Part shown: piece after piece, positions 6,456 through 60,900 of the stretch | How positions within the stretch are numbered: the stretch's first letter is position 1 | Layout: each line of letters begins with the position of its first letter | Assembly (NCBI GenBank): GCA_036172245.1 | Contig: JAYWIR010000003.1 | Coordinates: 5,828,001-5,892,000 of the forward strand | DNA length: 64,000 nt | Reading direction: 5' to 3' | Source of the DNA: Raillietiella orientalis | Taxonomy: Eukaryota | Notes under the pieces: generated by a model | Database searches by the model: none | The model's input: the letters and a program-made list of their open reading frames with translations, nothing else | What the model was told of the DNA's origin: nothing | Position numbers and translations under genes: made by a program

Positions 6456-6845
6456 GCAGCCACACGCCCGAGTTGGCGGAGGTGTGGCCACGGTCTCCGC
6501 GCGTGGCGGTGCCAAGCGTTACGGGTTCGAATCCCACCCGGGGAAGGATCGACGTTGAGAATAGGGGGCGCATCTTGGATTTCGAGTCCTCCCCGCAGGA
6601 TGACTCTGGCTGGCCTTTACGCCCTGGGTGCGGCACAGGTGGAAGCCGTAAACAGGATGATCCCGTTGACTGGCAGAGATCGGAAGTTGACTCTCGGGGT
6701 CCTTTCAGGAAAAAAACAAAGAGCACCGGTTCCCTTCGGAGTGAGCACGGAACAGTTCGGTCGCCACAATGGAGGTGGTCGATACCCTCTCGGGTGTTTC
6801 CTCTCCAGGGTGACAGAAGCGCTCTGCTCCCTTCAGGGAAATTAC
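6456..6845 (+). mobile_element. Internally deleted copy of the composite element
   Basis: Head gcagccacacgc..tggcggaggtgtgg..gggttcgaatcccac..ggatttcgagtcc..gcaggatgactctg aligns to 36411-36590 and then jumps to sequence aligning with ~37216-37452. Confidence 0.72.
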
Positions 6846-11481: not shown

Positions 11482-12634
11482 TCCATGCTGGCGGAGTGTG
11501 TCTGAAGTCTCCGTGCGCGGTGACAAGCGTCGTGGGTTTCGAATCCCCCACGCATGATGACGCTGGCTGGCCTACGGGCCTTGAGTGAGGCACTGGTTGA
11601 CACCCGGTCACGACGGGGCGTTTATTGATAAAACCTACATGTCTGGGGCAGGTCGTTTGATCCTACCACGTTATTTATGGATACGAGAAGGAACCTGCCG
11701 GGATCTGGCACGCAGGCCAGCGGGGTTCGCCTCCGTAGCACAGGAGAAGGGGGAAGAAACAAAAAGAAAAAAACAAAACAAAAAATACAGTCAAAAAATT
11801 GGAGGGAGGGGACTCGGGAAGGGATCACTGTGTTCTGGAGGGTGTCCTCTGCATCCTTGTAGGGATGCCGGCAAGTTCCTGTTTTATGGTTCCTAGATGG
11901 GGCCATCTTGGTGCTGTCCTCATGAAGAGGACAGCAAAATAGATGACGTCCCTGTCGTCATGGCCTTCTTTGGCGTTGTTATTCCATGCAGCCACGATCT
12001 TGCCCGTGGGCAGCAAAGTGCTGCTGGGGATGCAGCCGGCGTGAGGGCGTCGCATAGGAAGAGGCTCTTTCAAACGTCTCTGGCGTTGCCGCTGGGGTCT
12101 CTAAGGGTCGCGAGAAAGAGTCCGGAGGCCGGAAGGCAACAAAGTTCACTAGGAGGTATGGGAGGGATTCCCGCTCCCCGTACTTTGCATAATTTGGGTT
12201 CACACGCATCCCGTGTCCACAGATGCCGATGGACGTTGCACGGGAGGCCCCAGTGCAGCAGCATCAGTGCCGACTCCTGCCACTTTAAGGGGAGGGTGTG
12301 GCACTGGTGGAAGCCGGAAATCCCCAGATGCTTCCGTTGACTGGCCGGGATTGTGGATGAACGCCCCGGGGTCCTTCCAGGACACCAAGGAGTCTTTCGG
12401 GGTTCTGCTAGCAAGCATAAAAGGAGACTTGCTTCAGAGACTTCCTGGATTCATAGAGTGGTCCCCTCCCTGCTTACTCCGTATAACTTGAAGAGTGACA
12501 CGCACCCTCGGGTGGCGTGGACCGTGTTGAAGAGCTTCGAGAATCCCCCCCATCCCGCCTTCCTTCTAAGGAGGACAACGGTTCTTCAGTGCTTGACGAA
12601 GCTGAAAAAAGAAAACCCGAAAGAAAAAGAAAAG
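11482..12634 (+). mobile_element. Diverged copy of the composite element with a monomeric tRNA-like head
   Basis: A-box TGGCGGAGTGTG 11489-11500, B-box-like ggtttcgaatcc ~11535-11546. The minus strand encodes TLPLKWQESALMLLHWGLPCNVHRHLWTR and IKQELAGIPTRMQRT. Ends aagctgaaaaaagaaaa. Confidence 0.8.
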
Positions 12635-15600
12635 TGGGGATGGCATCATTTGAGTCTCATGTCATTTTTTTTTTGACATTTGCAGTTACATCATTGAAGG
12701 AGTTCCAATGTGCTTTTCTTTTTGAATGCCATGAAGGTACAGAATATTAGCAGATACGCAATAATGTGCAATGTGATAAATATCAACAATAAATGGAATT
12801 TAAATCCAGTTTACATAGATTATGAAAAATAGAGGGAGAAAGATGAGAAGCGGGTAAAGCATGATTTATTTGACGTGTGGTATTTAATAGGCACGTGCAC
12901 GTACGCGATGTGAAATCAGAATCACAGAATGTGAAACGGGGGTCAGGGAACCGCCTGGGGAATCCATCGAAAGTGATGGTACTTCACATCACTTGATTGG
13001 ATAGCAAGGATCCATTTTCTTGACTTGCTTCATCAAGAAAAATCAAGGATCACTTTGTGGGAGCTTTTAGCTCACGGCTAAGGAAAAACTTTCCCTTGCT
13101 CACAGGCTGTTGCCGATTCACGTGGGATGAATTTAGAATTCGAAGATGGTTCGCCTTCTATTTATCCTTCGCTTTCATCGTTCACTGCAAGTCCACGTTC
13201 ATGGGGATGCGAAATCGCAAGGTTAAGATTCGCAATCTTCCCTCTCAGTTCCCTCCCATCCTTGAAGAAAAAATTGTGATTTGCAACGGCGTCATATTGT
13301 TCACCGGTTAATGCTAATTGGGCAAAGTGATGATGCTTCGATCGCCTTCAGACAGCTGAGGGCAGGTCACCCGACTTCAGCGATCGTTTCGAACCAGAAT
13401 CCGAGGCAGCTTCCGCAAACAGGCCATAGCAGGTCCTAAAAGCCCTTCGGGTAAAACGGAATTCCAGGGTGCAGCATCAAAAGATCGTTTTCGAATTTCC
13501 CTCATGTTGGTGGGAACTTTCCTCACCCATGAATTCGTCAGCCCGAAAACCATGAGCTGCAATGAAGATGGGAATTAATCTTGGTAGCAGGCGCCTTGTC
13601 GACTTGAAAGAGAGCGGTGGACCATGGGAAGCGAAAACTTTCTGCAACTCTCTTGGAAGCCCGAATTATCACAACTGTTTCCTCCTTAAAGATATCTGAG
13701 ACTCTGGTCTCGCTTTACGTTGCTTATCCCATCACGGGGTTCCTTTCTTAGGGTCTACTGGGACCCTTGGGTGCAACCTACGCAATTGAGGGTCCATCAT
13801 GCTTTTGACTCATCATTGCAGATCGTTTTCGCTACGGAACCAGAATGAATGTTACATTACATGAGTTCCGGAACCCATGTTGACTCTCCTTTGAATTGAA
13901 CATGCACTCGCCTCTGGCGTCGCCGCATCGGGGAGCACCGTGAGACCCCGTTCCGTGAGAGCCTGGCTCTAGTTCAGGGAGGTGCAAACCTGCATTCGGA
14001 TTTCAGCGTCTGCGCGCGACTTGGGAACATTGCTGAACTCATTTCATTGGTCCGTACACAAAAAACGAAAAAAACATCGTGCGTTTCCAAAGTGCACCCT
14101 GCAATTTGTTGTTGCTGTTGCTGTTGTTGTTTCCTTTTACCCAAATGCGCAACGCACGCACGCAGTGCACCCTCCTTGCGATCTTTCGACCCTGAATGCT
14201 ACCAACTACCAGAGCTTTTTTTTTTTTCTTTTTCAATCCGCGATTTCTTCCTCTCTCGAAAGGTCGTCTCTCGCGAGCTTCGTATCCGCTGACCACTTCC
14301 CTCTTGATAAACGCCAGAGCGCAAGGCTTGCCTTTGCTGAGAAATAATCACCTCGGGGAAACTTCGGGAGTCAATCGAATGCATCACCGAGGGCTTAGCG
14401 GCGTCTCCAACAGAGTGCCTGCGCCAGTCGCTGCTGGTGAGCGGTTGGATTGAGGTGTAGATCCATGGAGAGATTGCCCACCTCAAAATGGAGCAATGCG
14501 GCTGATCTGCTTGCGGTCTGCCGAAGACGCAAGAACCAACGAGACTCCTGGAGAAGAGTTGGGTTTTCGAACGAAGAGGTGGTCTGGAGAAGGGAGCGAG
14601 ACTTCTATGGCTGCGGAAGAAAGGCAAAAGCTGGCAAAGATCCAATGACCATGAAAACCAGAACTGGCATGGATATTTGAGAAGACTAAACGTGAGGATC
14701 AAGGAAGTTTCTGTGGCATCATTCTGCAATTTTCAATCTGTTCAAATTGATCAACCAATGGCTCACAATGCTCAATAGGTGAAAGGGAATACCAGATGAA
14801 TAAAGGGAGATGAATCGAACAGGAGATGAACAGAGAACCAATGATCTGATGGCGACCGTGTGTTGAAAAGGAATTCAGCGCTGGAGCGAAAGATAGGTGA
14901 CTTCAATGCTTCGGCATGAAGCCAAGAAGTGAAGACTGGTCTCGCGATCGTTCCTGAACTTGAAAACAAGCAGCATTTAGCTTTCCGTTAAGGGAACTAC
15001 ACGAACTTCCCCCTTGGCATCACTGTGATGTTTTTTTTGAGAACCTCCGACAAACACTAAAGAAAGATAGCATCCTGAAGAATTGCTTCAGACTGCAGAC
15101 CATTCGAAGGTAGAAACATAATAATAGACAAGATCACTTCCATTTCAAGCAATGGTCCGAGGTTAGGTTGAATCTTTGATCCTCATGATTGCACTCGTCA
15201 CCTGGCACGGCAAAAACCGGAAATAATCAGGTTTTGCTTAGTCTGCATTCCGCAAATGATCCTTATAAAGCGAGAGGTTTTACCCCCTCTTGGGATGCGG
15301 ACCGGATCCTCTGGAGAACCCAGATGGAAAAAATGGAATGAGATGTAGGTGATGAATAATTTATCTCTAACAGCAGCTCCTGAAGGACTGCTCCATTTGG
15401 AAATGGGCTCTCAAACGCTTCCAGCACTTCTTGCCTTGCTGACCGATTGCTGGATGCAAGTAAGGAAGAATTTGCCTCTTTACCGGTCAGCTGAAGTGCA
15501 ATTTTTTGGATTTTACTTTCGACAACCCAAATTTCACCAACATGAAGATTATCGGAAAGGTCGTTTCTAAAGGAGACCCTGCTAATACTTTGGAAGGGCT

Positions 15601-16384: not shown

Positions 16385-16487
16385 GGCCAGCGTGAGGGCG
16401 TCGCATAGACAGAGGCGCTTTCAAAGGTCTCTGGAGTTGCCGCCGGGGTCTCTAAGGGTTGCGACAAAGAGTCGGGAGGCCGGAGGG
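16385..16487 (-). repeat. ~100-bp fragment of the LINE body of the composite family
   Basis: Aligns directly with ~12035-12137 (gcgtgagggcgtcgcatag...ggggtctctaaggg...ggaggccgga). Confidence 0.85.
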
Positions 16488-28300: not shown

Positions 28301-29711
28301 TTCGCCTCCAACTGGGTGCGCGAGCTCAAAAGCATCGCACTCGCCTTGGACTGCTCTCAGAATGCAAAGATCACCTTGAAGACGAAGAGGGTAGGTTTCC
28401 GGGTGGACTTCCTTGCGCAGCAGAGTGAGAGGTTCCTCAGCAGTCGAGACCGCATCAGATGACGCGCCATCTCTGGGAGCCAACTACCCACCTGAGGCTC
28501 GCCTAATTGCTACGCTGGTGGGGGAGGACGCAGTGATGTTCTGGAGCGCCCCTGCAGGGATAACAAGGATAGCCATTCCTCATGCAGGCTGGAAAGAGCA
28601 GGAGCCCTGCAAATTGTAGAGCACAGATGCTGAAAAGGAAACACACTAAATTGTTTCGTCTCCCTCTGCTTGGAGATGAGCCGAAAGGCATGCCTTTCGG
28701 AGGCACAAAGAACATGAATTAAGATTGAAGGAGTCTTCTCGACTCTGGCTAAGGAAGGAATCCGTCCAAACCAGTGCAAGTGATATCCCCTTGGAGCGGC
28801 ATGAAGGAATTCTGCCTGCGCTTCAGAGTGCAAAAAGATGCTCCTTTCGAGATTCTCAATACAGGCATCCCTTGCTGGCGGAGATTGCCGTACAGTTCGG
28901 CAGTGAAGAACACAGAAGTTCCATGGAACTCCTCGAGTGTCTGAATTTGCCAAAGAGTTTCGTACCACCCTGCGATGTGCTCAACATCGAGAAGGCTGGT
29001 TCGCAATGACTTGCCAATGCCCATCATTTCTTAACAGAATACGCAAACATGAAGCCTTCCCCTCCATCTGCTGCCAACGCGATTGATGCTTCTCTGGGTC
29101 GCTGCAGTAGCAAGCCTGGAGGCGGCTTCGTGAACAAAGAAGGAAGAAAGACCTCATGTTATTTCGAAACTTCGAAAGCGTGGGATTTTCCAGGCATCTC
29201 GACTCATCCTTCTGAGCATCGAATGAGAACGCTTTCATCATCTGAGATTTCTTGGAATTCTTAGAAAGGCTTGCGAGCTTCATGCGGAGACGACTTCAGG
29301 CTGAAGCCGGACGGCTGCAGAGTCCACAGAAACTGGGCCAATGGCGCTCTGGTCCAACTAAGAAAAATGGAGGCTCTTCCTTTTACTGTGGAGGAGGCTG
29401 CCAATTTTTACAAGGTCTGAATCGAATCTCATGATTCCGAAAGCTATTCTCTGAGTCACAAAGATGTACTGATGCTGATCACGAGGCAGGTGAATCGCTT
29501 CAGTTCGAAGAATACAGAGCATCTTAATCTCGCGGAGTTCGCCTCCAGCTGGGTGCGCGAGCTCAAAGCGTCGTGCTCGCTTTGGGATCGCTCTCAGGAT
29601 TCAGAGATCCCCTTGGAGACGAAGAAGATACGTTCCACTGTGGACCTTCCTTCCGCAGCAGAGTGAGAGTTTCCTCGGCAGTCGAGCCCGCATCAAATGA
29701 CATACCATCTC
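28301..29711. repeat. Diverged direct duplication (~28301-28473 vs ~29538-29711)
   Basis: ttcgcctcca.ctgggtgcgcgagctcaaa...gcagcagagtgagag.ttcctc.gcagtcgag shared by both copies. Confidence 0.9.
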
Positions 29712-32088
29712 AGGAAGTTGCGTCAAGGCCAACGATCCAGAGAGAACCCTTCTCAGAATGGCAATTGATAACACACTTTTGAGTATTCCTTTTTGGTCAC
29801 ACAAAAAGGAGACACTCAAAAGCACAGCTATTGGTAGGTATTATTTGTTGTGATGATCCAAGGAAATGGAAGAAGCAATCGAAAAGGAATGGTGAGAAAT
29901 TCAATTTTTTTCAAGATGGAATTTCAACTGCAACATGGCGACTAGGAAGGCTAGGAAGACAGTGGATCTCAAATCTCAGCACAAAAATTTTCTCATTTTA
30001 GAAAGAGAGTGGTCCTGCAAAAGTATTTTTTCTATTCTCATGGATCGCCTGGAAACACAACCTTTCATCTGAAAGTATCAGTTGCTAAGTGCCAGTGCCC
30101 AAGAGGGAATTCAGAAATTCAGAAAAAGCGACTCTTGCGTGACCCTCGAGAAAATTGAAACACTCCCGACGCAGGTATGCCGATTTTAGAGAGAAGCATC
30201 GAAATAAAAGTCATAAAATGATCTGATTGTGATAATTAAATCATAGAATACACCTCTGCTTTATACTTTTCACTTTTCCAGAGATTCCTGCATCCACCGT
30301 GTGCGGGCAAGTCCGTGGAACACCGAAGGAAGTAGTGAAGGACCGTGTCTGAATTTTCACAAGTTCCATCTTCATTATTTGAGGTATCGGAGTCCCAATT
30401 CAAGATAATGGGATGACCGTCAGATTGCCGGATGGTTCCCGTACTGTTCTTACTGAGGCTTCCTTTTATTAACGAGTCTTCTGCACGTGGGCACAAGTCT
30501 CATAATTCTGAACGTCTGCGGACTGAACCACCTGAAGGTCAGGGTGGCAGTGCTGTGGCGCCACCTACATGACTTTTCTGTTCTTGTATTTCTACTTGTA
30601 CTTAAATTCGTTAGAATTTTTTTATCCGTGATCAGAGAGGTGAATACCCGGTGATCCCATTTGGTGCGCTACCTTCCAGAGCGCGAGTTCGAACCACAGA
30701 AAATCCGTAAACAAGAAACTCATTCAAGTTCCTTCGGATTCCTCTGAAGAATACTCAGGCATTAAGAGCGATGGGACCAGTAGAGAGCTAACATTTTCTT
30801 GATGGAAATTCCATACTCGAGAGCAACGTCAACTTTGGATTGGATCAAACTCCCTCGAAGAAATGTTTTGGCAAAGGCAAGCACATCCACCTGCTTCGGA
30901 GGACATCCACTGCAGAAAACAAGGACACTACTCTGAGGTGGTCCAGACTAGTGCGTTTGCAGGGATACTTGCATTCCTCGAGTACTTTCTGCTCTTCAGC
31001 TCAACTTGGAGGCAGGAGATGAGGATGGACGCAAAATAACGGCGTCGTTCGACACACGCGTGCTTCTTTTCTTCGGGAAGCAGCACCCGAATTTCAAATC
31101 GGAGACTTGTGTGGTCGTTTGCGACGATCACTTCGCTTTTGCCACAATGTACAACAAGGACAACGTACACAGGAAACACAGAGCGGCGTCCTGCCGCCGT
31201 CTCGGAGTCAAACAAAGAAAGACTTTAAGCACTCCAAGGAACTCGGAAGTGGAATCGTACTGAATTTCGAATTGAAATTCGGAAACTCGCAAACATTTCT
31301 GTCAGCTGGAAGCGGCAGATCGTGGCTGGAGACTATACTAACTTGAATAAACAGTCAATCATCAGCTAATAGATGATAATGTTACTTCTCTGAAGTTCTT
31401 GGCTTCCTCTATCCCTGGGCCCCCAACGCTTCTCTCGGTTCTTCCTGGGGAGCATGACTGATCACCCTCATGAAGAAAGTGCAGTGGTCATAAGCAACTG
31501 ACGATGCTTTCATTCCTCGAAAGAAGAAGACCGGACTGAGTTCGTCAAAATTCTAGGTAACGGTTCTTCTATAAATAAAAATCACGGTTTTCATTCTCTA
31601 TTACTCTAGGTATTAGAGCCTTAAGATTGGAACGAAAGCTTTATGAGTGTTTGTCCTTCTAAAAGGCACAACGGACCCCAGCGGCAGTCCAGTGAAAGAG
31701 AAACAAGTAAGCACAATCTCTTATTGCCTTGACGTGCTATCACTTGACCAGGCATCGAGAGAAATGACCTTTGCAAAGTAAGCGCGAACCATCCGATTTC
31801 AAAGAAAGTTTCAAGCGTTGAAGCGACGGCTTTCGAAAAATCTACACAACGCACAGAGCATTTTGCATGCCATTCTTTCCTCGTACTCTCCAAGTTCCAG
31901 AAACGAAGCAACTCTGCGCAGTCAAAAGTCTCAAGAAAGAATGGATCCCAGGAGCTGCATGATCCGTGTAACCGTGCTGCCGTTCGATCTTGGTTTGACA
32001 AATTACCTGTGCACACTGGGAATCGAATCCGCCACAGCGTACTGGACACAAGTGGAATGCGTCATGACGAACACGATACTTGGAAACG

Positions 32089-32350
32089 GGTCAGCAGTTT
32101 TGTTGCGCCCGGAAGATGTACCCATGAGGAATCTTTGCGTCTCACAGTCTTTCTGAACCACTGCAAGAGGATCCGGTTGACCAAGAGGACGCAGGAAAAC
32201 TTCAATGAGACTTTGAAATGGGCGCTTCGCCACGGTCAGCAGTTTTGTTGCTCCCGGAAGATGTACCCATGAGGAATCTTTGCGTCTCACAGTCTTTCTG
32301 AACCACTGCAAGAGGATCCGGTTGACCAAGAGGACGCAGGAAAACTTCAA
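32089..32350. repeat. 117-bp direct duplication with a 28-bp spacer
   Basis: 32089-32205 and 32234-32350 differ at one base. Confidence 0.97.
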
Positions 32351-35347: not shown

Positions 35348-36365
35348 GAGGTCTGCACGAACACCAAGGAGGAAAATCTAAAGATCTGGCAGAGCAAACG
35401 AATCTGGAGATGCTCGAAAATTCCAAAGTGAGTAATGGATGGAGGAAGAGTCGCACGCGCTCTTTCCTGTAACAACGGTAGCCACCCGGAAATGGTAACG
35501 CTGGTAACGTCATTGCCGAATAAAGTAGGGAGTTCTCTTGCAACATTGGAGGAGTCGAAAAACTCCTGGGAGACGGGAAGTAGAGGAGGGAGTTGGCGGT
35601 GGACGGCGCCACTCCTCGTCTCCGGGTAAAGGGACTGCTTCGGTGGAGTAAACAGCTTGGTGTGTCTCCCGAAGAACTCGTGGCCCCTCCCCTGTGTGTA
35701 AACACTGCCGTGTTCCCACTCCGGTGGAAACAGGATGTTCTGCTGTTTCTGCACTGAAGATTCCAGTGCAACCAGCACAGGCACATGGTTTCTGGAAGAG
35801 TTGCCTCCCCGAACTGTTCCGAGTAAGGTGCGGTGGAATTTTGTTGAACTGCAGTGCCCCCGAGGGCTTGTGGCAGAGATTCGCTCCGGCTCTCAGGCAG
35901 CCGCAGGACATCATTTGGACATGGCGGCGATTCTCCTTCACTCAAGGCGGGCTGAAGACGGCCGCTGTGATGGCAACCATCTGTTGCATTCGAGCCACAG
36001 TGACAGCCCGCCTCGTGTTGGAATCAACTTCGCGACGAAGAGAGGTCACCAGCATCGCGACAGACCTCATGAGGTGGCCTCATCTACAGGAATAAGTCAC
36101 CAGGAGATGTTTACTGACCAGAGCCACTTCTAGAAAGGAAGGAACGTCATTAACCAAAGACCTTCGTCCCCACTTTCCCGTCTTTTTTTCACTTGTACTT
36201 TGTCCCCTCCCTCCGTTCCCAACTTTTTGGAAGCCGGTCTGCGTGCTAGTGGTCATCCCGGTTAAACTTTTTTTTTTTGTTTTTCAGGCGTTTCTTTTTC
36301 AGGGTGCTCTTCTCCCCTTCTTTCTTGTAGCTTGTTTTTTGTTTTGTTTCGTTCTGTAAATAAAA
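35200..36365 (+). mobile_element. Decayed L1/Tx1-like LINE 3' end
   Basis: CKHCRVPTPVET..FW followed by an ORF2-end-like helical stretch, a T-rich 3'UTR containing ggtctgcgtgc (also in the other 3'UTRs) and AATAAA near 36360. Confidence 0.55.
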
Positions 36366-36408: not shown

Positions 36409-37826
36409 CCGCAGCCACACGCTCGCACTGGCGGCCGTGTGGGTGCGGCCTCTGCGCGAGACACCACGCGTTGCGGGTTTGAATCTCCACGTGGAGAATG
36501 GACGCCGAGAATGGGGAGTGAGTCATGAGTTTCGAGTCCCCACTGCGCGCAGGATGACTCTGATTGGTCTGATAGGCTTCGGGTGCGACACTGGTTGACA
36601 CCCGGTCGCGCCGGGGCGTTTCTTTATAAAATAAACAAACACGTCTGTGGCAGGACGTTTGATCCTGCCACGTTACTTGTAACTATGAGTAGGAATCTGC
36701 CAGGATCTGGCACGCAGATCAACGGGGTCGCCTCGGCAGCACCAGGGATGGGGAGATAAACAAAAAGAACAGCAGAAAACATACAGTTCCCAAAACGGGG
36801 GAGCTCGGGAAGGGATCCGTGTGTGCTGGACGATGTCCTCTGCATCCTTGTAAGAATGCCGGCAAGTTCCTGTTTTAGGATCACCAGAGAAGCCATCTTC
36901 ATGAAGAGGGCAACAGAATAGATGGTGCCCCTGTCGTCCTGGCCTTCTCTGGAGCTTCTCGATGTGGTCACGATCCCGCCTCGTGGACAGCAAAAAGTGC
37001 TTCTGTGGATGAGGCCGGCGTGGGGGCGTCGCGCAAGAAGAGGCGCTTTGAAACCTCCCTGGGGTTGCCGCCTGAAGTTCCAAGGCTCGAGACAAAGCGT
37101 CCCCAAAAGGACCAGAGGGCAACACAGTCCACTGGGAGGTGCGGAAGGGATTTCCGTTCCCTGCACCGTGCACAGTTCGGGTCCACTTCTCCTCCCCGTG
37201 TCCAGTGATGCCGACGGATGCGGCACTGGTGGAAACCCGATGTCGCCGCTGACTGGCCGCGATTGACAGCTGACCCTATGGGGTCCCTTCCAGGAACCAA
37301 GGAACCGGTTTCCCATGGTGTTCACTTCCGGTTGTGAAAGTGAAGTCGTCTCCTTCCCTCTTCCCAAGTGAGCGTACCCTCCATCAAACACCATGGAGCT
37401 GGTTGATTGATGCCTCTCTAGAGTGTCAAGAAGTGCTCTGCTTCCTTCAGGGAGAGGACCCTTCGGAGAAATTGGGAAGCATCCCTTCGTGATTCTCTTC
37501 AAAGGAAACACGGAGCGGTTCCCTTGCGAGTTCCCTTTGGAGAAGAAATGAAGAGAAACCCCGTCCGGAGAGAATGAGGAAAAGATTTCCTTCGCAGTCC
37601 CCCTACCAAGCAAAAGAGGATCGGATTCCTTTCTCTGGAGCCTTTCTGGACTCATAGACCTAAATAACCTAAACAGTGGTACGCACCCTCGGGTAGCGTG
37701 GACTGAGTCAAGGAGCTCTGTGAATCCCCCCCGCCCCTAGGGGATCAGACAGTTCTTTAGCACTTGGCAAATCCTACCCTCTCCCCCTCCCCTTAAAAAA
37801 AAAAATAAGCTGAAAAAGAAAAAAAA
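36409..37826 (+). mobile_element. Composite element: dimeric tRNA-like head + antisense L1/Tx1 ORF2 3' end + A-rich tail
   Basis: A-box-like 36429-36442, B-box-like ~36476-36486 and ~36528-36540. The minus strand encodes HWTRGGEVDPNCARCRERKSLPHLPVDC (zf-RVT-like). Ends aagctgaaaaagaaaaaaaa. Confidence 0.8.
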
Positions 37827-37869
37827 ACTGGAAGGAAAGCAGCAGAAACAGAAGAACCCAAAAGGATTT

Positions 37870-38790
37870 CCATTGTCCTAGACCAACCTCTTTTCTGCTA
37901 GTGCTGTTCTCCCTAAGGGACGCAAGGGGCAGCGTAAACCCGGCAAGGTGGGAAGTGACGTGCTGCATAGCAGCAAAGAAGAAAGCATTGAAGACGCGGA
38001 CAACTCGGAAAGTGACGGACGCTGCGACCCCGAGTGTCCCACCCCTAGGACTATTACGTTGGGGAGAGCTGCTCGAGACGCCTCTGTGTTGGAACATCGG
38101 CACCCTCCCTTTCGAGTGGCACGAGTCGGCGCTGTTGGCGTTGCATGGGAGAATCACGTGCAAAGCACGCCTTCATTACTGGACACGGGGGAGCGTGGAC
38201 GCTCAGTGCGAGAGGTGCGGGAAGAGAGAGACACTCCTACACCTGCTATTAGACTGTACTGCCCTCCGACTCCTTTGGGATCGCCTCGCGACGATCCTAG
38301 GTATCCTAGTGAGCATTTTCAGACGCCAAGGGACATTTTCAGACGCCTCCTCGCGCGTGCCGCACTGCAGCCAGCCGCCTCCTTCGCAGTTCTCTGCTGT
38401 CTTCGCGAGATCGTAGCGGTCTGGAACGCCAGGAGAAGAGGCCGAAATGGCAGGGACGCCATCCACTAGGCGTGGATCTTCCTGAAGATTCCTCCTGGGC
38501 GAGATACGGAATGAAATTGTCATCATCATGAACAAGATGCAAAGGACGCCTGGCAGCGTACTGTAATCCCTTCTTCGGTCTCCCCCTCCCCGTGCATAAT
38601 TTCCCTTCCCCTATTTTGTTTGTTTGTTTTTCCCTTCCCCCACACTGCCGAAGCGGAGCTCACCGGTCTGCACGCCGGTCTTCGACAGGTCCATTCTACG
38701 TGGTAGAACCAAAGGTTCTACCACACCGATGTATTTTTGTTATTCCATATAAGAAATGCCCAGCATAACCTGGCGATGATCATCCTTCGC
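37870..38790 (+). mobile_element. L1/Tx1-clade LINE 3' end (ORF2 C-terminus + 3'UTR)
   Basis: TLPFEWHESALLALHGRITCKARLHYWTRGSVDAQCERCGKRETLLHLLLDC is a clear zf-RVT CCHC motif, followed by AVWNAR, a T-rich 3'UTR and a hairpin at 38700-38724. Confidence 0.88.
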
Positions 38791-41700
38791 CGATAGTAAC
38801 GATCTCATCGTGATCTTTAAAAAATAAAGTGAATAAATCAATGATGAAATACAGGGACTTCCGAAAAGTTTGGTGTTTGGGTGAAGTGGGGCGGTTCTCT
38901 GTGATTCTAGAAGGCTCGCAAGCTTTTGGGGAACAAGGGAAACTGTCTAATACTCTCTCGCTGATTCTCGAGCCACAACTTTCTAGATCTGTTTGTCAAT
39001 GACAGCTCGATGCTTTGACATGTGGCAGAAGCCACCTCGGAGCAGAGGGAGGTGGAGGGGATCACTCGCTTTCATTCCACTCCCAGGCAGCGCACTGAAT
39101 ACTCGAAGAACCGTGAGTCGCCCGAAACTACCTCCAGATCAAGTGAAAAACAAAGAGCAGCAGGTCCACTCATCGGCGTAGCATGAATGGTGCCAATGAG
39201 TAATTTCCTTCGTCTTCATGAAATCGGAAGCCTTGGCGGCGCAGGGCGCTCTTTCTATCGAGTGCATCCATCATGATCCATCAATCATAAGTCATCACCG
39301 AGTACTGAAAAGGTCAACTTCGTGATAGAACTCGGACGGCTATCTCATTCGAAAGTTCTGCACACGGCTTCCTGGCTTCGGTGCTTGAGGAGCAGTTGCT
39401 GCGCCTCTGATCTGCTCAACCAGGAAGCGGACCTTGCTTCAAGAAATCACGATAGCCCCTAGAATCTTCCAGGTGGGCTTCGCGGAGCTCCTCACGACGT
39501 CCATTCCCCTCGTGCTCATTGCCTCACCATGAAACATGAACAGTCTTAAATACTTAAACAGACCCTTCGTGTCTTCAGAGCAATCAAGATATGGGCGCAT
39601 ATCGGAGCCGATCGATCACCTTAAAAAAAAACATACATTAGAAATCCTGGGCAATCGCCTTATCTCTTCTTATCTTCTTGCTACAGACCTTTTTCTCCTT
39701 TCTGTCCCTCCCTCCCCTCTTGAGCATTCCCTTTTTCACGGACAAGCAAGACTATTTAGAAATAAACTGATTCCCTGTTTTTTTTAACTCTCTATTTATT
39801 TATTTATTTTTTAAAAAGCTTTCCCTTTCACTTCAATAAGCACAGATGGAAGATGAAAAATTTCGTGCCGCCACTGCAGCCATAGCTAACTCTCCTATCC
39901 ATCAAATTCCATTAGCTTCCTCATGACCCTGGAAAAATCATACTCTGGATTCAAGCATGCAGCGGTGACACCCTAATCCCTTTCTATAACCCTCTTCAAC
40001 TTGCAGGCATACAATCAGCTTGACACAATCTTTCCCCATTCATCCATTGCTCCCTTTCATTGAAATCAATGACCCGAATCGATTACTGTTCATCCATCGA
40101 TGCTGATCCGTGTTCCAATGACCATTCTTGTTCTGGTGCCTGGCAAAAGTCTATCCTCTCAACATTCCTCTCTTGGACCCCAGGTTCTTGGGACTTCCTT
40201 TTTGGTTCGGAAGCGTTCAGGAAGTTTCCATCGCTGATGGTCGTATGCATTTAGGAGTAAGAAAGTCCCCCTCAACTGGCAGTATCTTGACGGATGGTCT
40301 TCACGATGCTCGTGCATCGGACTGTCCGACGAGAACTGCCTAGAGCTCTCATGGGGTGCTCTTGATAGAAACCTACTTTCTTAGACTGCATGTTTTGGAG
40401 CTCCACTCTTCCAGCTTCACGTTTCATCCAAAGCTGTTGGTACTGAAGCATTCTCCGGAAGATGTGCAGCGCATGCGCGCCGCCCTCTCTTTTTTTGCCG
40501 TGATGTTGGGATCCCTATCTACTCCATGAGCTATGAGCTCATGGGTTGCTTATGCCTGGGGGAAACATCAGCTGTAGCTGAGCGAAGGATAGCCTCCCTT
40601 CTGCTCCTCGTAGAGAAGATACGATTAGAATTCAAATGGATAGACAAAACGTTTTCAACTGCCCTCGAAGTGGATCTCACTCTGTGCCTTTCTTTTCTCT
40701 CCTTCCTTCTTTTCCCTTCCCTCCCTCCTCTTCCGGTTCCCAAGTCTTCGTCCTTATTACGTAGTAGGCCCCCCATATTAAAGAATGACTGCTTTTTGCA
40801 GAGGATGAGAACCATTCCCAACGTTAGACGGGTGCTGTTGCAGAAGCTTGCTATCGTTTAGCATCATCTCGTTTCCACCTCCTGTTTCATCTTCCCGTTT
40901 TTATCCTGTCTTATGATTCAAAAAACCCCTCATTTTCTGAGAAGCCTCACCTCCCAAGAAGAAGAAGCTTTGACCGCTGATTCCGGACAGATCTGTGTTG
41001 CCCCCTTGAGTTTCGTGGGCTGAAAAATGAAAGAATAAAATCAAGCGGAATCTTCCTAGCCGATCCGTTTGACTTTGTAGCCTCACCGCACGTCAGGTGG
41101 ATGCGACCACCGCACCTTCAGGCTGTTCAGATTCTCTTTACTCCATGGGCACAGTTTCCAAAGAAAATTTCGTCATGGTGAATTATGATGGATGAGAGAT
41201 CTCCGAAATGCAGCGTGCAAAGCAGATTCTTACTCCACTGCGTGACAGGCATCACCGTGCTGGTCTCTGGTTTCCAAATACGTTCATTGGACCTAGAGGA
41301 ATATGATCTTGTCTTCTCAGACGTGGAGGTTCAGCAGCCTCGCAAACAAAGCACCTTTTTATAATTGAACTTTTCCGGCCGATAGAAGTTACAACTAAGA
41401 GTAGTCCCGGAGAGCTAGAAAAGCCTGGATCAAGCGTTCCTGGAACTCGGAACACTCGGATGATGACCTCGGTCAACATCTCCGAGCACTTTGGATGGAA
41501 AAGTGCATTGTTCTTCCTCTTCGCTTGTATCATGGGATGAAAATGGATCTCCATCAGTATGGTGCTCGACTGTCCAGAATCGTGAGAATGGTAACCGTTT
41601 TTCGTCGAGAATTCTTCTTGTATAGCGTGAGAAGTGGTTACCCTGCACCTATGGCAAAGCATTGAGATCTATATGGCGTCCCGATCATCTTTAGTGGCAG

Positions 41701-51639: not shown

Positions 51640-53010
51640 CCCGTCCGCGACGGCGAGGGGAGGAAGGTGACGGGCTCGGAGGGGCGGCCCGAGCACTCTG
51701 CGAGTGGCGGCGCCGACGGTGGCAGAGTACCGCCGTCCAGACGCCAAGTCGGTGGAGGTGACTGCGCGAGAACCGATGGTCGAGCGCAAGTCCTCAGGCG
51801 CCACCGAGAGAGCGGCGAGTAGAAGGAAGAACTGGGGAGTCAGGAAGGTCGGTCGCGCCGAGGTCGCGCCCTCCGGCGTTCACACGCTCCTCAAGTTGGA
51901 CGGGTGTCCCTCGATGGTGCGGCGGTAGGGCACCAGGACGACCTCGTACTCTCCGTGCGCTCTCAGTTCGCCCTCCACGGATGTCCATGGGCTGAGCTGG
52001 GCACTCCTCCGACGCCCCCAACAGGCCCACCGCGGAGTCGCCCAGGTCCCTCAGAAAGATGAGGACGCCGTCCAGGATCGGCCAGTTGGAAAGGGGGATT
52101 TGCTTCCACGTGACCCACACGGCCGTCGCGTTGATGACCAGGGAGATGACCTCCTGCGTTCCTCGTCCAGCTCCAGGCGGAGCGCCGCAGGCAGGTCGGG
52201 AGTGACCATCAGGTCGGGGAGCAGTCTCGCGGGGACGGAGCCGTTCCTTGTGCGCACCAAGAAGTACCGGGAGTCGGCAAAGAGTCCCTCGACGATGACA
52301 GCGCGCAATTAGAAGTGCCCCTGCAGCGAGGGTCCAGCCGTCGCCGGGGTTATCCGCGTCGAACGACTCCACGGCGTAAGGGCGTTCGCTGCCACCTCAG
52401 ATCAGGAGCATGGACGAGCTGGTCACGTTGACGACGTCGGGCTCGCCCTCCGCATGCGAACCGCCGTCGCCCGAGGGAGTGGGTGGGGAAGTCAGCGGCA
52501 GCTCGAGGGCCGACAAGGAGGTTGATAGGGCTGCATCCTTTTCTGCAGACGCGGTAAAGAAGCCTCCGGTAAAGGCCTTCGGCCCTGGCACGTGCACGAG
52601 CCGAAATCCTCCGGACGGAGATCTGAGGAGAGGAAAGAATAGAAGTGACCTCGGGACGAGCGTCGCTGGCGGTCGATCGGGGTAGGCAACCGACCGTCTA
52701 TCTGCAAGCTGCCGCTGCTGAGGGTGGTGAAGCGGTCCTGGTCGACAGGCAGGTTGAAACCTCCACGCCGCGACCGGAGCAGGCGAAGGTCGTTGCCGTC
52801 GGCGATCACGTGACAGAGCAGCACATCAGTCTGCCCCGCGGCGTAGGCGCAGTCGCGGGGCTCCAGGGAGGGGACCACCGGAGGAGGAAAGAGGACGATG
52901 TCCCCGAACTGGCCGGCGAAGGTGTCCAGGAAGACCCGCGCCTGCACGGCACCCACGGGACCGAATGCGTTGCACACTAGTGGCCGCCGTCTGGGTTGCC
53001 TCGATACCAC
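51640..53010 (-). pseudogene. Roundabout (Robo)-like Ig/FN3 receptor pseudogene fragment (end of one Ig, one Ig, three FN3)
   Basis: Translations CNAFGPVGAVQARVFLD..PPPVV, LLCHV..RFTTLSSGSLQID/DLRPEDFGSCTC, EPDVVNVTSSSMLLI*, VEGLFADSRYFLVR, INATAVWVTW, YEVVLVPYRRTIEGHPSN and DLASGRRYSATVGAATR follow the Robo ectodomain order. In-frame TGA at 52397-52399 and 51880-51882, several frameshifts, and a 72-bp GT-AG intron at 52623-52694. Confidence 0.8.
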
Positions 53011-53064
53011 GATTTCTTAGATAGCATGGAATTCCTACTTGTTATGAATTACATACTATCTTAG

Positions 53065-54349
53065 ATACAGATTCCATGAATCCAGGGAGGTTCCACAGGA
53101 AGGAGTCCGTTGCTCTTACGCTTGGGTAGGGAACCCCAAAAGGAACCTTCGAGCCCTGATTGTTTACGAAGGGAACACCGGAGGGAATCTCTTCCTTATC
53201 CTCTCCGGCAGGATCCCCCGGAGGGGATCACTCCTCATTTTCTTCTCCGAAGGAAGCCTGCAGGGGAACCGCTCCGTGTTTCTTTGAAGAGAACCACGAA
53301 GGGACGCTTCCCAATTTCTCCGAAGGGTCTCCCTGAAGGAAGCAGAGCACTTCTTGACACTCTAGAGAGGCATCAATCAACCAGCTCCATGGCGTTTGAT
53401 GGAGGGTACGCTCACTTGGGAAGAGGGGAGGAGACGACTTCACTTTCACAACCGGAATCGAACACCGTGGGAAACCGGTTTCTTGGTTCCTGGAAGAGAT
53501 CCCCTAGGGTCAGCTGTCAATCGCGGCCAGTCAGAGGCGACATCGAGTTTCCACCAGTGCCGCACCCGTCGGCATCACTGGACACGGGGAGGAGAAGTGG
53601 ACCCGAACTGTGCACGGTGCAGGGAACGGAAATCCCTTCCGCACCTCCCAGTGGACTGTGTTGCCCTCCGGTCCTTTTGGGGACGCTTTGCCTCGAGCCT
53701 TGGAACTCCAGGCGGCAATCCCAGGGAGGTTTCAAAGCGCCTCTTCTTGCGCGACGCCCCCACGCCGGCCTCATCCACAGAAGCACTTTTTGCTGCCCAC
53801 GAGGCGGGATCGTGACCACATCGAGAAGCTCCAGAGAAGGCCAGGACGACAGGGGCACCATCTATTCTGTTGCCCTCTTCATGGAGATGGCTTCTCTGGT
53901 GATCCTAAAACAGGAACTTGCCGGCATTCTTACAAGGATGCAGAGGACATCGTCCAGCACACACGGATCCCTTCCCGAGCTCCCCCGTTTTGGGGGCTGT
54001 ATGTTTTCTGTTGTTCTTTTTGTTTATCTCCCCATCCCTGGTGCTGTTGAGGCGACCCCGTTGATCTGCGTGCCAGATCCTGGCAGATTCCTACTCATAG
54101 TTACAAGTAACGTGGCAGGATCAAACGTCCTGCCACAGACGTGTTTGTTTATTTTATAAAGAAACGCCCCGGCGCGACCGGGTGTCAACCAGTGTCGCAC
54201 CCGAAGCCTATCAGACCAATCAGAGTCATCCTGCGCGCAGTGGGGACTCGAAACTCACGACTCACTCCCCATTCTCGGCGTCCATTCTCCACGTGGAGAT
54301 TCAAACCCGCAACGCGTGGTGTCTCGCGCGGAGGCCGCACCCACACGGC
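53065..54349 (-). mobile_element. Second young copy of the composite element, inverted relative to the 36.4-kb copy and truncated at both ends
   Basis: Near-identical reverse complement of ~36434-37655 over most of its length. The plus strand carries the same zf-RVT-like peptide, 3'UTR hairpin and reversed tRNA-like head. Confidence 0.85.
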
Positions 54350-57300: not shown

Positions 57301-57715
57301 AGAAGTGAGCATGTGTATTTATTTCTCGAGGGACAGGACAGGGAACTCTGATTCCATGATGAGACGTTTTCTGCGGAAGCAGCTTGAACTCCCGTGGTGG
57401 GTGAAGCCAACTCCCTCAGATGCGGGTGAGCAGAGTTCTCCTCGGGGGCTTTGTTGACCTCCTTCTCTTTCCGCAAGAGGCCTTAATGGTTCCGCGTCAC
57501 GCTGTTCCAGAGTCTGTCCCCAGCTCACTCCCTTCTGCCATTCTTCTTCTTCCTGAAAAGAGCAGCAGTTGAGTCTCTCGAGGCAAGTGATGCAGGCTGG
57601 CAACAGCAACAGCGGAGGGAGGCGAAAGAAGGAAGGTGATTTTGCGTCCCTCGTCTCGGAGGCCTTGAAATCTGTCGCGGTTCTTTGCTCACACCTTCTA
57701 CCCACCCACCCTCCT

Positions 57716-57961
57716 TCAACCTGCTCGCGAGATGGAAATTTTTCGGAGTGGAATTGATCTCCCATAGGAAGAGAAGCTGGCGAACCTGCTGCTGATGCAA
57801 GGGAAATCCCAGTAGGACTGTCCTTTTCCGAACTGTTCTCCTTCCTCCATGCTCGAGGGCAGCCTCTGGTTCATGGTCTCCGGAAGGAAGGACGCCAGCA
57901 CCGAGCCTAAGGTGGCCGCGGCTCCTAGTATGAGAGTGGGCAGTGTGCGGTGGAACACCTT
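57716..57961 (-). CDS. SLC22 3' exon (KVFHRTLP...LPET...YWDFPC)
   Basis: Acceptor ttgcag|AAG after a 62-bp intron. The end is uncertain: either the in-frame stop at 57716 or a possible donor at 57786 (CAG|gttcgc) followed by another exon. Confidence 0.8.
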   Translation of the reverse strand, partial: KVFHRTLPTLILGAAATLGSVLASFLPETMNQRLPSSMEEGEQFGKGQSYWDFPCISSRFASFSSYGRSIPLRKISISRAG

Positions 57962-60900
57962 CTGCAACCCCGGACACACCCCGGTCAAGGACCTCCAAAA
58001 CCCGGTCGGAGAGACCCATTTACCAGGTGTATGATGACGGGTGACATGAAGGTCATCAGGTGTGCAATGACCTCCGTGACTCCCATCGCCTGCGAGCGTA
58101 TCACAGTGGGGTAGATCTCCGACTGAGCCTGCATCAGCACGTTGTAACTGATGTTGAGGAAGAACCTCGCGATGATGGCCATGGCGGCGTAGGCGGCGGC
58201 CAATTCTAGAGATGATAGATGGCTTTTAAGGAGCTGGAGGAAGAACAGAACGAGGAGAAAGAGGAGATAAAGGGGAAGGAGGGGGGAAGTTAGGAGGAAG
58301 TCGAGGAAGAGGAAGAGGAGAAAGGGGTTTTTATAAAGGGGTGCCTAAAGATTTTCAGGGCAGGGAGGAAGCGAGCGAGGGACAGGAAAAGGGAGCAGGG
58401 AATGAGAGTAAGGAGGGAAATGCTCCCGGAAGACGTACCGAATGGGACGAAGGCTGCCAGTATGCTAGTCAGTCCGCCCAAGAGCAGGAAGATTACAGCC
58501 GTCCATCTCCTACCTATCTTCTCGGAGAGGTACATGGACGAGAATGCGCCGGGGAGCTCCGTGCAAGAGGATATAGAGAACGCGAGGTATGGGTTAATGC
58601 CGAGGTTGACCGAATTTCGGACGTGGCCGTCGAAGGCAATGCCCTGCAGGCTCCTGCAACGGAGGAAACGATGGGGAGCTGGGAATAGAACTCCGAAGAG
58701 CTCGGAGGAGGAGAAGCGGGGGCGCGCAGGCCATCCTTCCGCCTCGGGGAGAGACAAGGACGGAATCTGCCCTTGGATCTTCCCCATGGAAGACGGAAGA
58801 ATGGAAAGGAGAAGGATTAAGGACCATTTTCCGAGCGCGAGTGGGCCACATCATCAGAGCAGGACTGAAGGATCGTCGTAGGGGGAGGTGCTCTTTCCGC
58901 AAACGATGATTTCTGCTGGAGGAGCTCAGCCTCCATCCTCGAGTCCATTGGTATCGACTGTGTGCGCGGGTGAGGTGAGAAGGAGGACTCAGGGGGAGCC
59001 CAGCCGAGCCGAGAGCATCCCGAAACACGGGAGAAACTCTTCCCAAGAAGACGGCAGCCGTGTTTCCTCTTCTTCGTACTTTCAAGCTGTCGGCGAGCCG
59101 GAGGATGCAAAGGACAGCCAAGCCGCGGGCGCTTCTGGAAGCCGATGGGGCTGTGGGGATTCCCGAGAGGAGGTGAGAACGCAGTTCCCAGTGACCTGGA
59201 GACCTCCAGGTGGGGAGAGACGAGGACCACGCCTGTCGGGAGCGAATGGGGCGCTATTTGGCAGCCTCTCGGGAGGAGGAGAAGTGCGGAAGGTGCGACT
59301 GCCCTTACCAAATGGCGGCCATGAGGAGCACCCTCATCCGGATCCTTGGCTTCCTGAGGGCGTCCAGCCACGTGTGGATCTTCCTCTCCGTGTTGACCTC
59401 CTTCTCGACGAAGACCTGCGGGAAGATTCACCATGAAGGGGAGGTTCCTGACAGCGCCTCTGTCCTCGGGGAGCGGGTTGTGGGGTCCAGGAGAGTGTCC
59501 GGCTTCCCGGGAGAGCGACCGAGAGGTCCGCAGAGGGGAGGCCTTGGTCCCCCTCCGTTACATAGGTGGCTGGCTCATCCCCGCTTTCCTTTCTCACTCG
59601 CGCTGCCTCCGTCCCTGCCGGTCCCGTCCGCGGGCTGGCGGTCGAAGGCGACCATCGAGTGACCCGAGGCGGCCCCGGCGGTCGAAGCCATCGTTGCTAC
59701 GAGCCACCGGCGCACTGCCCTGAGCAGCGAGAGCAAATGAAGGAGGGAAGTACCTTGATCTTGGTTCTGGCCGCGTCGTCCAGCTTCATGCCGTTGCTCT
59801 CCGCGATGTCTTCCAGGGTTCTGAGGGTTTTGTCGACCTGACCCTTCCCCATCCTCCACCGGGAAGACTCCGGGATGATCAGCGGGGACAGCACCGCCAG
59901 GGCAGGCAGGCTGTGGAAGATGATGCAGAACCACCTCCAGTCACCGATGCCGTAGGCCGACCAGGAGAGGGCGACTGTAGTGGGTGCGAACCCGAGCGCT
60001 AGGGGCACCATCAGGAACGTTGTCCGCTTTGACACCTCGATGTACTCCATCCCTGGAAGGAGGGATGCGAGGAAAGGGCGAGCAGGAATTCCGAGAAGGC
60101 TTCCTCCGCTCCGAAGCGCGCGCGCGCCCCGAGGTCACGACGGGCGCAGAGATGGGGCAGGGGAACGGGTAGCTGGAGGGAACGATCCCATTTCTCCGTT
60201 ATTTCCCTGAGAGAAGAGCAAGCAGAGGGACTCTGCACTTCCGCGCATGCGCACAAGAGTGGGCCGGACCGTCACCTCCTCGCGTCTCGCCCTCCGGAGG
60301 CTGCATCCCCTCTCGCAGGAGTTTATGGTCCACTCGGGGAGGGTGGAACGCAAGGAAGGGGCGGGAAGCACCCGCAGCACTCCGTTCCCCAGCGCATCAG
60401 GACGCCCCTTGCCCCAACCCTTAGCTCGTGGGCTCCCGACCGCATCTCAGAAAATCCCGCCTTATGATTTCCTTCCTCCCCGTCTCTCCCCACGAATTCT
60501 CAGCGGACCCTGCAGGTAGGAGCTGCCATCCACGTCCTTGTCCCGTGCTAGACCCGTCTGCACCCCTTCCCTGCCTCCTCCCCCTCCCTACCTCCTTCCT
60601 CAGGAGTGCGCTGGGTCTTACCAGAATTCTCTCCAAGCGACTGAGGAACCGCCGAGGGAGCTCTCTGATCCCTCGGGGAGACTCGCTGTTCCCCCACCTG
60701 TCCTCCTTCCCGCGTGGTGATGAGAGTAGACGAGGAGGAGGAAAGGGGGTAGGCGGGATGGCAGCGTCACCCCTTCACCCGCTCCTTCCCTTCCCCAGGC
60801 AGGCGCGCGATCCCTTGACCTCAGGGATCCGGAGGAAGTAAGGGACCTTTCCCTAACGGGTTGGTTGGGGAAGGACCGCCCCCTTAGGTTTTGCGTGGGA

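What the first reader, a model, noticed from the sequence alone, without database searches (positions are those of the whole stretch)
54140..54349. Alternative model: Tx1-type target-specific insertion into a tRNA-derived repeat
Seen: on the LINE strand, the copies pass from an A-rich stub (aataaa / ataaagaaa / ataagaaa) straight into related sequence: cgccccggcgcgaccgggtg at 54165, its reverse complement at ~36600 and ~11600, and tgcccagcataacctggcg..tcatccttcgc at ~38757-38790 after a clearly different LINE subfamily. Established: Tx1-clade elements are often sequence-specific (Dewa in tRNA arrays, Keno in U2 snRNA, Mutsu in 5S rRNA). Inference: this lineage may target one site of a tRNA-derived SINE in opposite orientation, which would be a new target class.
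Basis: partly seen in the sequence, partly recalled or inferred. Interest (0 to 1): 0.7.

Follow-up and report, generated by a model that had tools for sequence, protein, structure and literature searches.

The report
LINE families that target one SINE
A jumping gene of the LINE type has repeatedly and independently landed at exactly the same base, in the same direction, inside copies of a short tRNA-like repeat, and a sister family uses a second site in the same repeat: a known habit of some LINEs, here with an apparently undescribed landing pad.

Summary
Supported, with the junction moved. The 20-mer at 54165 is the LINE's own terminal hairpin, shared by the whole clade; the LINE ends at 54187 and a 15-bp target duplication flanks it (53553-53567, 54188-54202). 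Genome-wide, 21 of 32 flank-blind 3' ends of this family (A) sit at that base of a tRNA-like SINE, antisense. Empty sites are common (20 of 30 heads; one at 6626). Bounded inserts run 224-5160 nt in 28 length classes, and 14 of 16 full-length-type 5' ends abut the same site, so these are independent insertions, not one composite. The 38757 copy is another family (B) at a second, sense site in the SINE tail (11 of 18). Further families hit fixed sites in relatives' ORF2. Tx1 membership is not shown: the lineage is a long, unresolved branch of the L1 group, and its endonuclease lacks the usual target-reading hairpin. LINEs that target other transposons are known; I found no SINE target in print. 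The scan noted both the targeting (2-4 cases each) and the missing hairpin in other windows.

The parts
53072..53552 (-). SINE body downstream of the target (host copy 1)
   Evidence: profile built from empty-site copies, 325 bits
53553..53567 (+). 5' copy of the 15-bp target-site duplication
   Evidence: 14 of 15 identical to 54188-54202
53568..54187 (+). 5'-truncated family-A LINE, 620 nt: ORF2 C-terminus with zinc knuckle, then 3' UTR
   Evidence: tblastn with an intact clade ORF2, 58% identity; terminus from 30 loci
54112..54136 (+). 3' UTR hairpin 1 (family-specific sequence, compensatory changes between families)
   Evidence: RNAalifold on 18 ends: 4 of 12 pairs with two-sided changes, all in this helix
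54157..54187 (+).
   Evidence: same form in all clade families read
54188..54202 (+). 3' copy of the target-site duplication
54203..54349 (-). tRNA-like SINE head with two B-box-like motifs (first ~13 nt missing)
   Evidence: profile hit 124 bits; T-arm match to own tRNA-Arg 17 of 18 nt
36421..36595 (+). SINE head and target copy, host copy 2
36596..37215 (-). family-A LINE, same 620-nt insertion as 53568-54187 (duplicated or gene-converted)
   Evidence: 98.2% identity; tract border near 37520
37216..37871 (+). second target copy, SINE body, A-rich stretch and tail of host copy 2
37872..38793 (+). family-B LINE (about 37887-38778) in the SINE tail site, sense orientation, with a weak duplication (9 of 15) at 37872-37886 and 38779-38793
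11527..11597 (+). 3' part of a SINE head and target copy, host copy 3
11598..12293 (-). independent family-A insertion, 696 nt, 76% identical to the 620-nt one
12294..12640 (+). second target copy (12294-12308) and internally deleted SINE body with A-rich end
6466..6840 (+). empty-site SINE: head runs through a single target copy (6626-6640) into the body

Best explanation
Family A is an autonomous two-ORF, APE-endonuclease LINE of the L1 group that inserted by target-primed reverse transcription at one preferred site of an older, abundant tRNA-like SINE, always antisense to it. Shown: fixed junction, 15-bp duplication, variable 5' truncation, full-length copies, empty sites, about two thirds of insertions on target. 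Inferred: the enzyme nicks the SINE's sense strand between TGGT and GGAAG; the freed 3' end pairs with the last 3-4 bases of the LINE RNA, which ends in two hairpins and leaves no poly(A); the other strand is nicked 15 nt away, just before a near-symmetric GAAG; early second-strand joining gives the truncations. The site is defined by sequence, not by distance from the Pol III promoter. Family B does the same at the SINE tail in sense, and other families at fixed sites in relatives' ORF2, so the clade seems to have diversified by switching among multicopy safe havens.
For: 3' flanks: 22 of 30 (20 of 28 after removing two duplicate pairs) and 21 of 32 flank-blind pattern hits (the 32nd hit is L008, off target). 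With up to 15,000 SINEs and a 5-base window the chance of 21 of 31 is about 1e-71 (density 3-4 per 92 kb near tRNA genes, 4 per 64 kb here). 40 inserts bounded by the SINE body, 224-5160 nt, 28 length classes. L133 is a 5.16-kb ORF1+ORF2 element between the two SINE halves; 14 of the 16 best full-length-type 5' ends abut the site, one as a second insertion in tandem; 8 of 17 regions hold both termini in one SINE. Host SINEs of filled sites are not one clade (12 changes, shuffled mean 15.1, 31 of 500 shuffles as low). B-box-to-junction distance varies 49-81 nt in 23 copies while the junction sequence is constant. Off-target copies have their own duplications; the four cleanest read CC|ACC at the 5' junction, and 14 of 18 off-target flanks start ACC.
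Against: About one third of copies are off target (11 of 32), and two of these lie in the same SINE at another position and in sense (L121, L126). The duplication is eroded or short in many copies (8-15 of 15). No family-A copy with an intact ORF2 was found among 17 regions, so the family-A enzyme itself is known only from broken copies. The clade's endonuclease lacks the loop that carries target selectivity in L1 (PMC1950540 passages), so the source of specificity is open. Samples are the top-scoring or least mutated copies, not a census (703 candidates, 40 scored). Survival bias (insertions into a harmless repeat being kept) could raise the on-target share, though it cannot produce single-base precision.
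Confidence: 0.9

Rival explanations
1. One LINE fragment inserted once into a SINE master copy, and the composite (head + antisense LINE + tail) spread as a unit, later trimmed by deletions.
For: Two window copies share one truncation point at 98% identity; L011/L012 are another duplicate pair; internal deletions are common in this family; label clustering on the SINE tree is marginal (31 of 500).
Against: 28 length classes whose 5' ends all stop at the duplication; nested 5-kb and tandem insertions at the site; off-target copies with their own duplications; the two window copies diverge abruptly inside the SINE body, as after gene conversion.
Confidence: 0.03
2. Targeting is by tethering to the Pol III machinery on the SINE's internal promoter, as Dictyostelium TRE5/TRE3 do at tRNA genes, with a short sequence preference choosing the base.
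For: Two families and a possible third site use the same Pol III-type repeat; the endonuclease lacks its selectivity loop; off-target sites share only about 5 bp with the target, too little to explain the enrichment alone (about 4e5 such 5-mers expected).
Against: Distance to the B box varies by 30 nt; no family-A terminus was found within 1.5 kb of 30 real tRNA genes; sister families target ORF2 DNA, which has no known Pol III promoter; TRE3 inserts in a 40-150-bp window, not at one base (PMC5911963 passages). Perfect sites look more often filled than average heads (21 of 42 against 7 of 28, p=0.048, differently drawn samples).
Confidence: 0.12
3. The endonuclease is loose and the base is chosen mainly by RNA-DNA pairing: read-through transcripts from elements already in the SINE carry target sequence at both ends and guide the next insertion to another SINE copy.
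For: No poly(A); family-specific last bases run into the first bases of each family's target; the element's 5' end resembles the target's continuation, and one off-target full-length-type copy (L165) carries about 14 target-like bases; the selectivity loop is missing.
Against: Off-target copies carry only about 3 target-like bases at the 3' end, not a long target tail; the near-symmetric flanks suit protein recognition. This is compatible with, not exclusive of, the best explanation.
Confidence: 0.2
4. For family B only: SINE + LINE-B 3' part is a conventional SINE with a LINE-derived tail, or a template-switch chimera, not an insertion.
For: Same orientation as a SINE tail would have; 3' flanks are mostly unrelated.
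Against: Insert length 228-1154 nt; duplications of 12-18 nt between SINE tail and LINE 3' end that include copy-specific bases (L266, L069, L077, L141); a full-length-type LINE 5' end at the same junction (L175); 7 of 18 copies show no SINE tail within 1250 nt.
Confidence: 0.12

Closest known systems
Tx1-clade LINEs that target other transposons: Tx1L in the piggyBac-type Tx1D (Xenopus); crocodilian Tx1-Mar in Mariner-N4_AMi, Tx1-9_AMi in Harbinger, Tx1-8_Crp and Tx1-4_AMi in LTR elements (PMC4494074, passages and section 15 read)
   Same: APE + RT LINE with a preferred site inside a dispersed mobile element; exceeds that paper's 20% criterion for target specificity; related families with different targets.
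   Different: Target is a SINE-like retroposon, not listed among those targets; two families use two sites of one SINE in opposite orientations; others target LINE ORF2; the lineage does not group with the putative Tx1 set; the endonuclease loop is deleted, whereas that of Tx1L is 11 residues (PMC1950540 passage).
Dewa, Keno, Mutsu (zebrafish; tRNA-Leu spacer, U2, 5S; PMC3706591 and PMC4494074 passages)
   Same: Single-site insertion in a multicopy small-RNA-type sequence.
   Different: Those targets are host gene arrays; here it is a dispersed, 20-25% diverged repeat, and the site lies about 170 nt from its 5' end, past the tRNA-like part.
Dictyostelium TRE5-A and TRE3 (L1 clade; PMC5911963 passages)
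   Same: L1-group element, orientation-specific, near a B box.
   Different: They insert at a distance window set by TFIIIB/C; here one base is hit at varying distance, and real tRNA genes were not hit.
Human LINE-1 ORF2p (PDB 1vyb, 8sp5, 8uw3)
   Same: Best solved match by sequence (E 7e-50) and by fold of the endonuclease model (Z 25.7, rmsd 2.2 A, 212 aligned); catalytic D and H kept; about 15-bp duplications.
   Different: About 20 residues shorter across the betaB6-betaB5 hairpin; no poly(A) tail; 3' hairpins; ORF1 with two CCHC knuckles.
SINEs with LINE-derived middle bodies (PMC5786205 passages)
   Same: tRNA-like head followed by LINE sequence.
   Different: There the LINE part is a fixed, inherited body from RTE or Vingi; here it is antisense, variable and flanked by a duplication.

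Membership tests
L1-group non-LTR retrotransposon | ORF2 with APE endonuclease, RT and C-terminal CCHC motif | tested here: met
   Pfam Exo_endo_phos and RVT_1 over cut-off, zf-RVT below cut-off, on L095/L096; family-A L133 is collinear at 40-70% identity
L1-group non-LTR retrotransposon | RT groups with L1/Tx1-like sequences | tested here: met
   inside the set of vertebrate, plant and other L1-like RTs (SH-aLRT 85, not starred); best PDB match human L1 ORF2p
L1-group non-LTR retrotransposon | 5' truncation and target-site duplication | tested here: met
Tx1 clade | RT monophyly with named Tx1 elements | tested here: inconclusive
   own clade 100%, stem 1.74 changes per column, in an open fork; nearest rows by path P0019 and Danio BAC82609. 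That BAC82609 is a Tx1 element is recalled, not confirmed; no labelled Tx1L/Keno/Dewa sequence was available; no AU test run
Tx1 clade | ORF1 with CCHC zinc knuckles (feature recalled) | tested here: met
   two C-x2-C-x4-H-x4-C motifs read directly in L095/L093 ORF1; Pfam found no family; not exclusive to Tx1
Tx1 clade | Long betaB6-betaB5 endonuclease loop as in Tx1L | tested here: not met
   36 residues between GDFN and the SIDH motif in 5 of 5 own sequences against 53-60 in 140 of 184 database proteins; model shows no hairpin there
Target-specific LINE (criterion of PMC4494074) | one sequence type in more than 20% of flanks | tested here: met
   21 of 32 and 22 of 30 for family A; 11 of 18 for family B
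Target-specific LINE (criterion of PMC4494074) | endonuclease cleaves the target in vitro | not testable with these tools
   needs protein
tRNA-derived SINE (SINE2) | tRNA-related head with A and B boxes | tested here: inconclusive
   sharp 5' start, B-box-like motifs near +60 and +113; best of 50 own tRNA sequences is Arg(TCT), mean score 34 against 24 for the best shuffle, mostly the T arm; ARAGORN and Rfam find nothing
tRNA-derived SINE (SINE2) | dispersed, non-coding, many copies, A-rich 3' end | tested here: met
   595 candidates, hits on many contigs; about 750-830 nt ending in an A-rich stretch
tRNA-derived SINE (SINE2) | own target-site duplications | tested here: inconclusive
   a 10-nt candidate in 2 of 14 copies, one of them only an A-run
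tRNA-derived SINE (SINE2) | Pol III transcription and a partner LINE | not testable with these tools
   no LINE-like 3' hairpin at the end of the empty SINE copies aligned; partner not identified

The most novel reading that the evidence does not exclude
A previously undescribed L1-group lineage has lost the endonuclease's target-reading hairpin and radiated into families that each hit one base of a different mobile-element target (two or three sites in one SINE, several in relatives' ORF2), with specificity set largely by pairing of each family's own RNA ends with the target, that is, a naturally re-programmable, RNA-assisted site-specific LINE.
Probability: 0.2. Interest if true: 0.85.

Novelty: new variant of a known kind. 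Interest (0 to 1): 0.6.

Why it matters
It adds a SINE-like retroposon, and LINE coding DNA, to the list of single-site targets of APE-type LINEs, with genome-wide support. Because closely related families (RT about 72-76% identical) use different targets while all lack the loop thought to read the target, the set is a natural series for asking what sets APE-LINE specificity, a long-standing question for targeted gene insertion; intact ORF2 copies of sister families exist for biochemistry. For annotation, it shows that the apparent composite SINEs in this genome are hundreds of separate nested insertions.

Tried and rejected
Composite-SINE reading: rejected. The 20-mer as target: rejected. Cruciform at the target: the majority sequence has inverted flanks but 20 empty sites fold no better than shuffles (mean z +0.13, 3 of 20 below -1), so not supported; copies are old. 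Rfam and ARAGORN gave no tRNA call for the head. Search for SINE duplications: mostly blank. Search for an intact family-A ORF2: none in 17 regions; L198's RT groups with another family and is probably a nested piece, and L133's row was misaligned across frameshifts, so both were left out of the second tree. Database relatives: at most 30% identity for whole ORF2 and 33% for RT; among 1.84 billion representatives two close hits (70%, 65%) of unexamined origin, then 37% or less; the third-party top hit is a tandemly repeated turtle prediction. RNA runs: none was listed. Literature: searches listed no report of a LINE specific for a SINE site; one search did not identify BAC82609. The library lacks Kojima and Fujiwara 2004 and Repbase reports, and I read no supplements (PMC4494074 figs S3-S5 and its Fig. 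3 target list may bear on novelty). No genomes of relatives are held, so distribution was not tested. One search timed out and was redone.

Full report
Observation. The window is G000:C3:5828001-5892000 in a 210-Mb assembly; earlier notes call it an arthropod, which I did not test.

Where the LINE ends. A query of the 3' UTR alone (54040-54165) gave 703 candidates, 40 scored, 30 fetched. All 30 continue into the same ~22 nt; 22 then run into an antisense tRNA-like head and 8 break off. A protein query from the 38xxx copy (9940 candidates, 150 scored) showed that the other families of this clade also end in AATAAA, a CCCGG/CCGGG hairpin and a few family-specific bases, without poly(A). An upstream hairpin shows two-sided changes between families; the terminal stem is nearly invariant and so carries no covariation evidence. 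The 20-mer is therefore LINE, and the terminus is 54187.

The target. A head query (595 candidates, 40 scored, 30 fetched) gave 20 empty, 9 filled and 1 unclear (the unclear one has the body directly after the head). Empty copies read head, one 15-mer, then a ~570-nt body and an A-rich end, 750-830 nt in all. What lies upstream of the LINE pieces in the window is that body. In filled copies the 15-mer is on both sides (14 of 15 at 53553 and 54188). The window itself has an empty site at 6626-6640. A pattern spanning the head side of the site returned 21 filled-type and 21 empty-type matches of 42 (counted from the rows; long duplications can make a filled site look empty).

How specific. A pattern ending at the terminus, blind to the flank, gave 32 hits. 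I analysed 31 and the 32nd was already held as L008: 19 have the head downstream, 2 more have the target with the body upstream, 11 are elsewhere. With SINE density of 3-4 per 92 kb and 4 per 64 kb, chance is negligible (about 1e-71 for 21 of 31 under generous assumptions). Two of the off-target copies (L121, L126) are in the same SINE's head in sense.

Independent events. Across 66 analysed ends, 40 inserts are bounded by the SINE body (two are duplicates); lengths are 224-5160 nt in 28 classes at least 12 nt apart, with 8-15 of 15 duplication matches. L133 is a full-length ORF1+ORF2 element of 5.16 kb between the SINE halves. With its 5' end as query (129 candidates, 40 scored, 30 fetched), 13 of the 16 best loci abut the body and target directly, one is a second insertion in tandem at the target, one is off target and one is at the tail site. 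Eight of 17 extended regions hold both termini in one SINE; most are internally deleted or interrupted and none has an intact ORF2. A tree of 48 host SINEs is star-like and needs 12 changes between filled and empty (shuffled mean 15.1; 31 of 500 as low; duplicates included). The window copies at 36xxx and 54xxx are one event, 98% identical up to a border inside the body.

The 38757 copy. It belongs to family B. Of 18 further family-B ends fetched (of 40 scored, 258 candidates), 11 have the SINE tail junction within 1250 nt upstream, in sense, with inserts of 228-1154 nt; several have 12-18-nt duplications that include copy-specific bases; the window's own is weak (9 of 15). Seven more cases came from earlier loci. 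Other families: 16 of 29 3' flanks read are LINE coding sequence, and 6 of 14 5' flanks of a third family end at ORF2 residue 588 in antisense, with two more within 20 residues and a 3' flank resuming at 588; pairs at residues 285 and 311-312 suggest further fixed sites, on two copies each.

Mechanism. Shown: junction, duplication, polarity, truncation. Inferred from standard target-primed reverse transcription: first nick on the SINE's sense strand between TGGT and GGAAG, second nick 15 nt away before GAAG; the two flanks are near-symmetric in 38 copies. The family-B site has TGAT then GGAAA on the nicked strand, a similar step. The four cleanest off-target duplications share CC|ACC, and 14 of 18 off-target flanks start ACC, which fits a short core plus 3-4 nt of primer-template pairing. 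A 5-bp core cannot give the enrichment, so longer context, RNA pairing or tethering must add to it. Distance from the second B box varies 49-81 nt in 23 copies, and 30 tRNA-gene loci held no family-A end, which argues against a TRE-like ruler.

The protein. Intact sister ORF2s have APE and RT domains, at most 30-33% identity to database proteins in two searches, and human L1 ORF2p as best solved match. The clade is monophyletic on a long stem, unresolved between L1 and putative Tx1 sets. The endonuclease keeps the catalytic D and H but has 36 residues between GDFN and SIDH in 5 of 5 copies including family A, against 53-60 in 140 of 184 database proteins. An AlphaFold model (pLDDT 89) has the L1 fold (Z 25.7, rmsd 2.2 A over 212) with no hairpin in that place. 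In L1 that hairpin governs target selectivity and its deletion lowers activity (PMC1950540, passages). I found this, before seeing that the scan had noted it.

The host repeat. SINE is the best label: dispersed, non-coding, sharp 5' start, B-box-like motifs, A-rich end. tRNA origin rests on motifs and a T-arm match to tRNA-Arg; Rfam and ARAGORN are blank; its own duplications and partner LINE were not established.

Comparison and novelty. LINEs that prefer other transposons are known: Tx1L in Tx1D, Tx1-Mar, Tx1-9_AMi, Tx1-8_Crp (PMC4494074, passages and section 15); target classes listed in PMC4640811 (passages) include tRNA genes and transposons. PMC3706591, PMC5911963, PMC5786205, PMC3747384 and PMC2790886 were read as passages. 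Seven searches (listings only) showed no SINE-specific LINE; subscription papers, Repbase and supplements were not seen. Verdict: a real, genome-wide feature; works like a Tx1-type target-specific LINE; membership of Tx1 not shown; new variant of a known kind. Interest 0.6, raised by the two-site use of one SINE, the radiation of targets and the missing recognition loop, held down by the known precedent of transposon-targeting LINEs and the decayed state of family A.

Noticed in passing
L177-L190, L098 (for example G000:C46:31531, C1:8063136): A third family sits antisense at ORF2 residue 588 of related LINEs in 6 of 14 5' flanks and forms tandem arrays; L093/L097 at residue 285 and L089/L096 at 311-312 suggest more LINE-targeting families.
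   Followed up: partly
L121, L126 (G000:C13:802920, C25:648778): Family-A-like ends inserted in sense within the SINE head near position 125-137: possibly a third site.
   Followed up: no
L193, L195, L199, L205: Family-A elements that keep both termini but lack large internal parts, some keeping ORF1: possible bipartite non-autonomous derivatives.
   Followed up: no
G000:C19, C101, C36, C119, C31 at about 8.3-8.9 kb from the contig start: Near-identical LINE copies, two with ORF2 over 1000 aa, at the same distance from contig ends: perhaps a subtelomeric or collapsed repeat unit.
   Followed up: no
L029 (G000:C1:8959523): Short inverted duplication at the LINE 3' end, between the A-rich stub and the terminal hairpin.
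   Followed up: no
L011/L012 (G000:C12:1757906, 1749532): Duplicated filled SINE directly beside a tRNA gene.
   Followed up: no
window 36434-37520 and 53265-54349: 1.1-kb inverted pair at 98% identity 16 kb apart whose SINE bodies diverge beyond a border: probable ectopic gene conversion.
   Followed up: partly
window 35530-36008 (+) and 16342-16487: Further fragments of the same LINE clade.
   Followed up: no
window 51794-53016 (-): Broken frames that resemble another APE-type LINE endonuclease and following region (resemblance recalled, not searched).
   Followed up: no
window 57500-60134: Frames on both strands that look like SLC22-type transporter exons (resemblance recalled, not searched).
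   Followed up: no
window 32089-32350, 21150-21409, 28301-29717: A 145-bp tandem duplication at 99%, a 78-bp inverted repeat at 92%, and a diverged 1.2-kb-spaced duplication.
   Followed up: no
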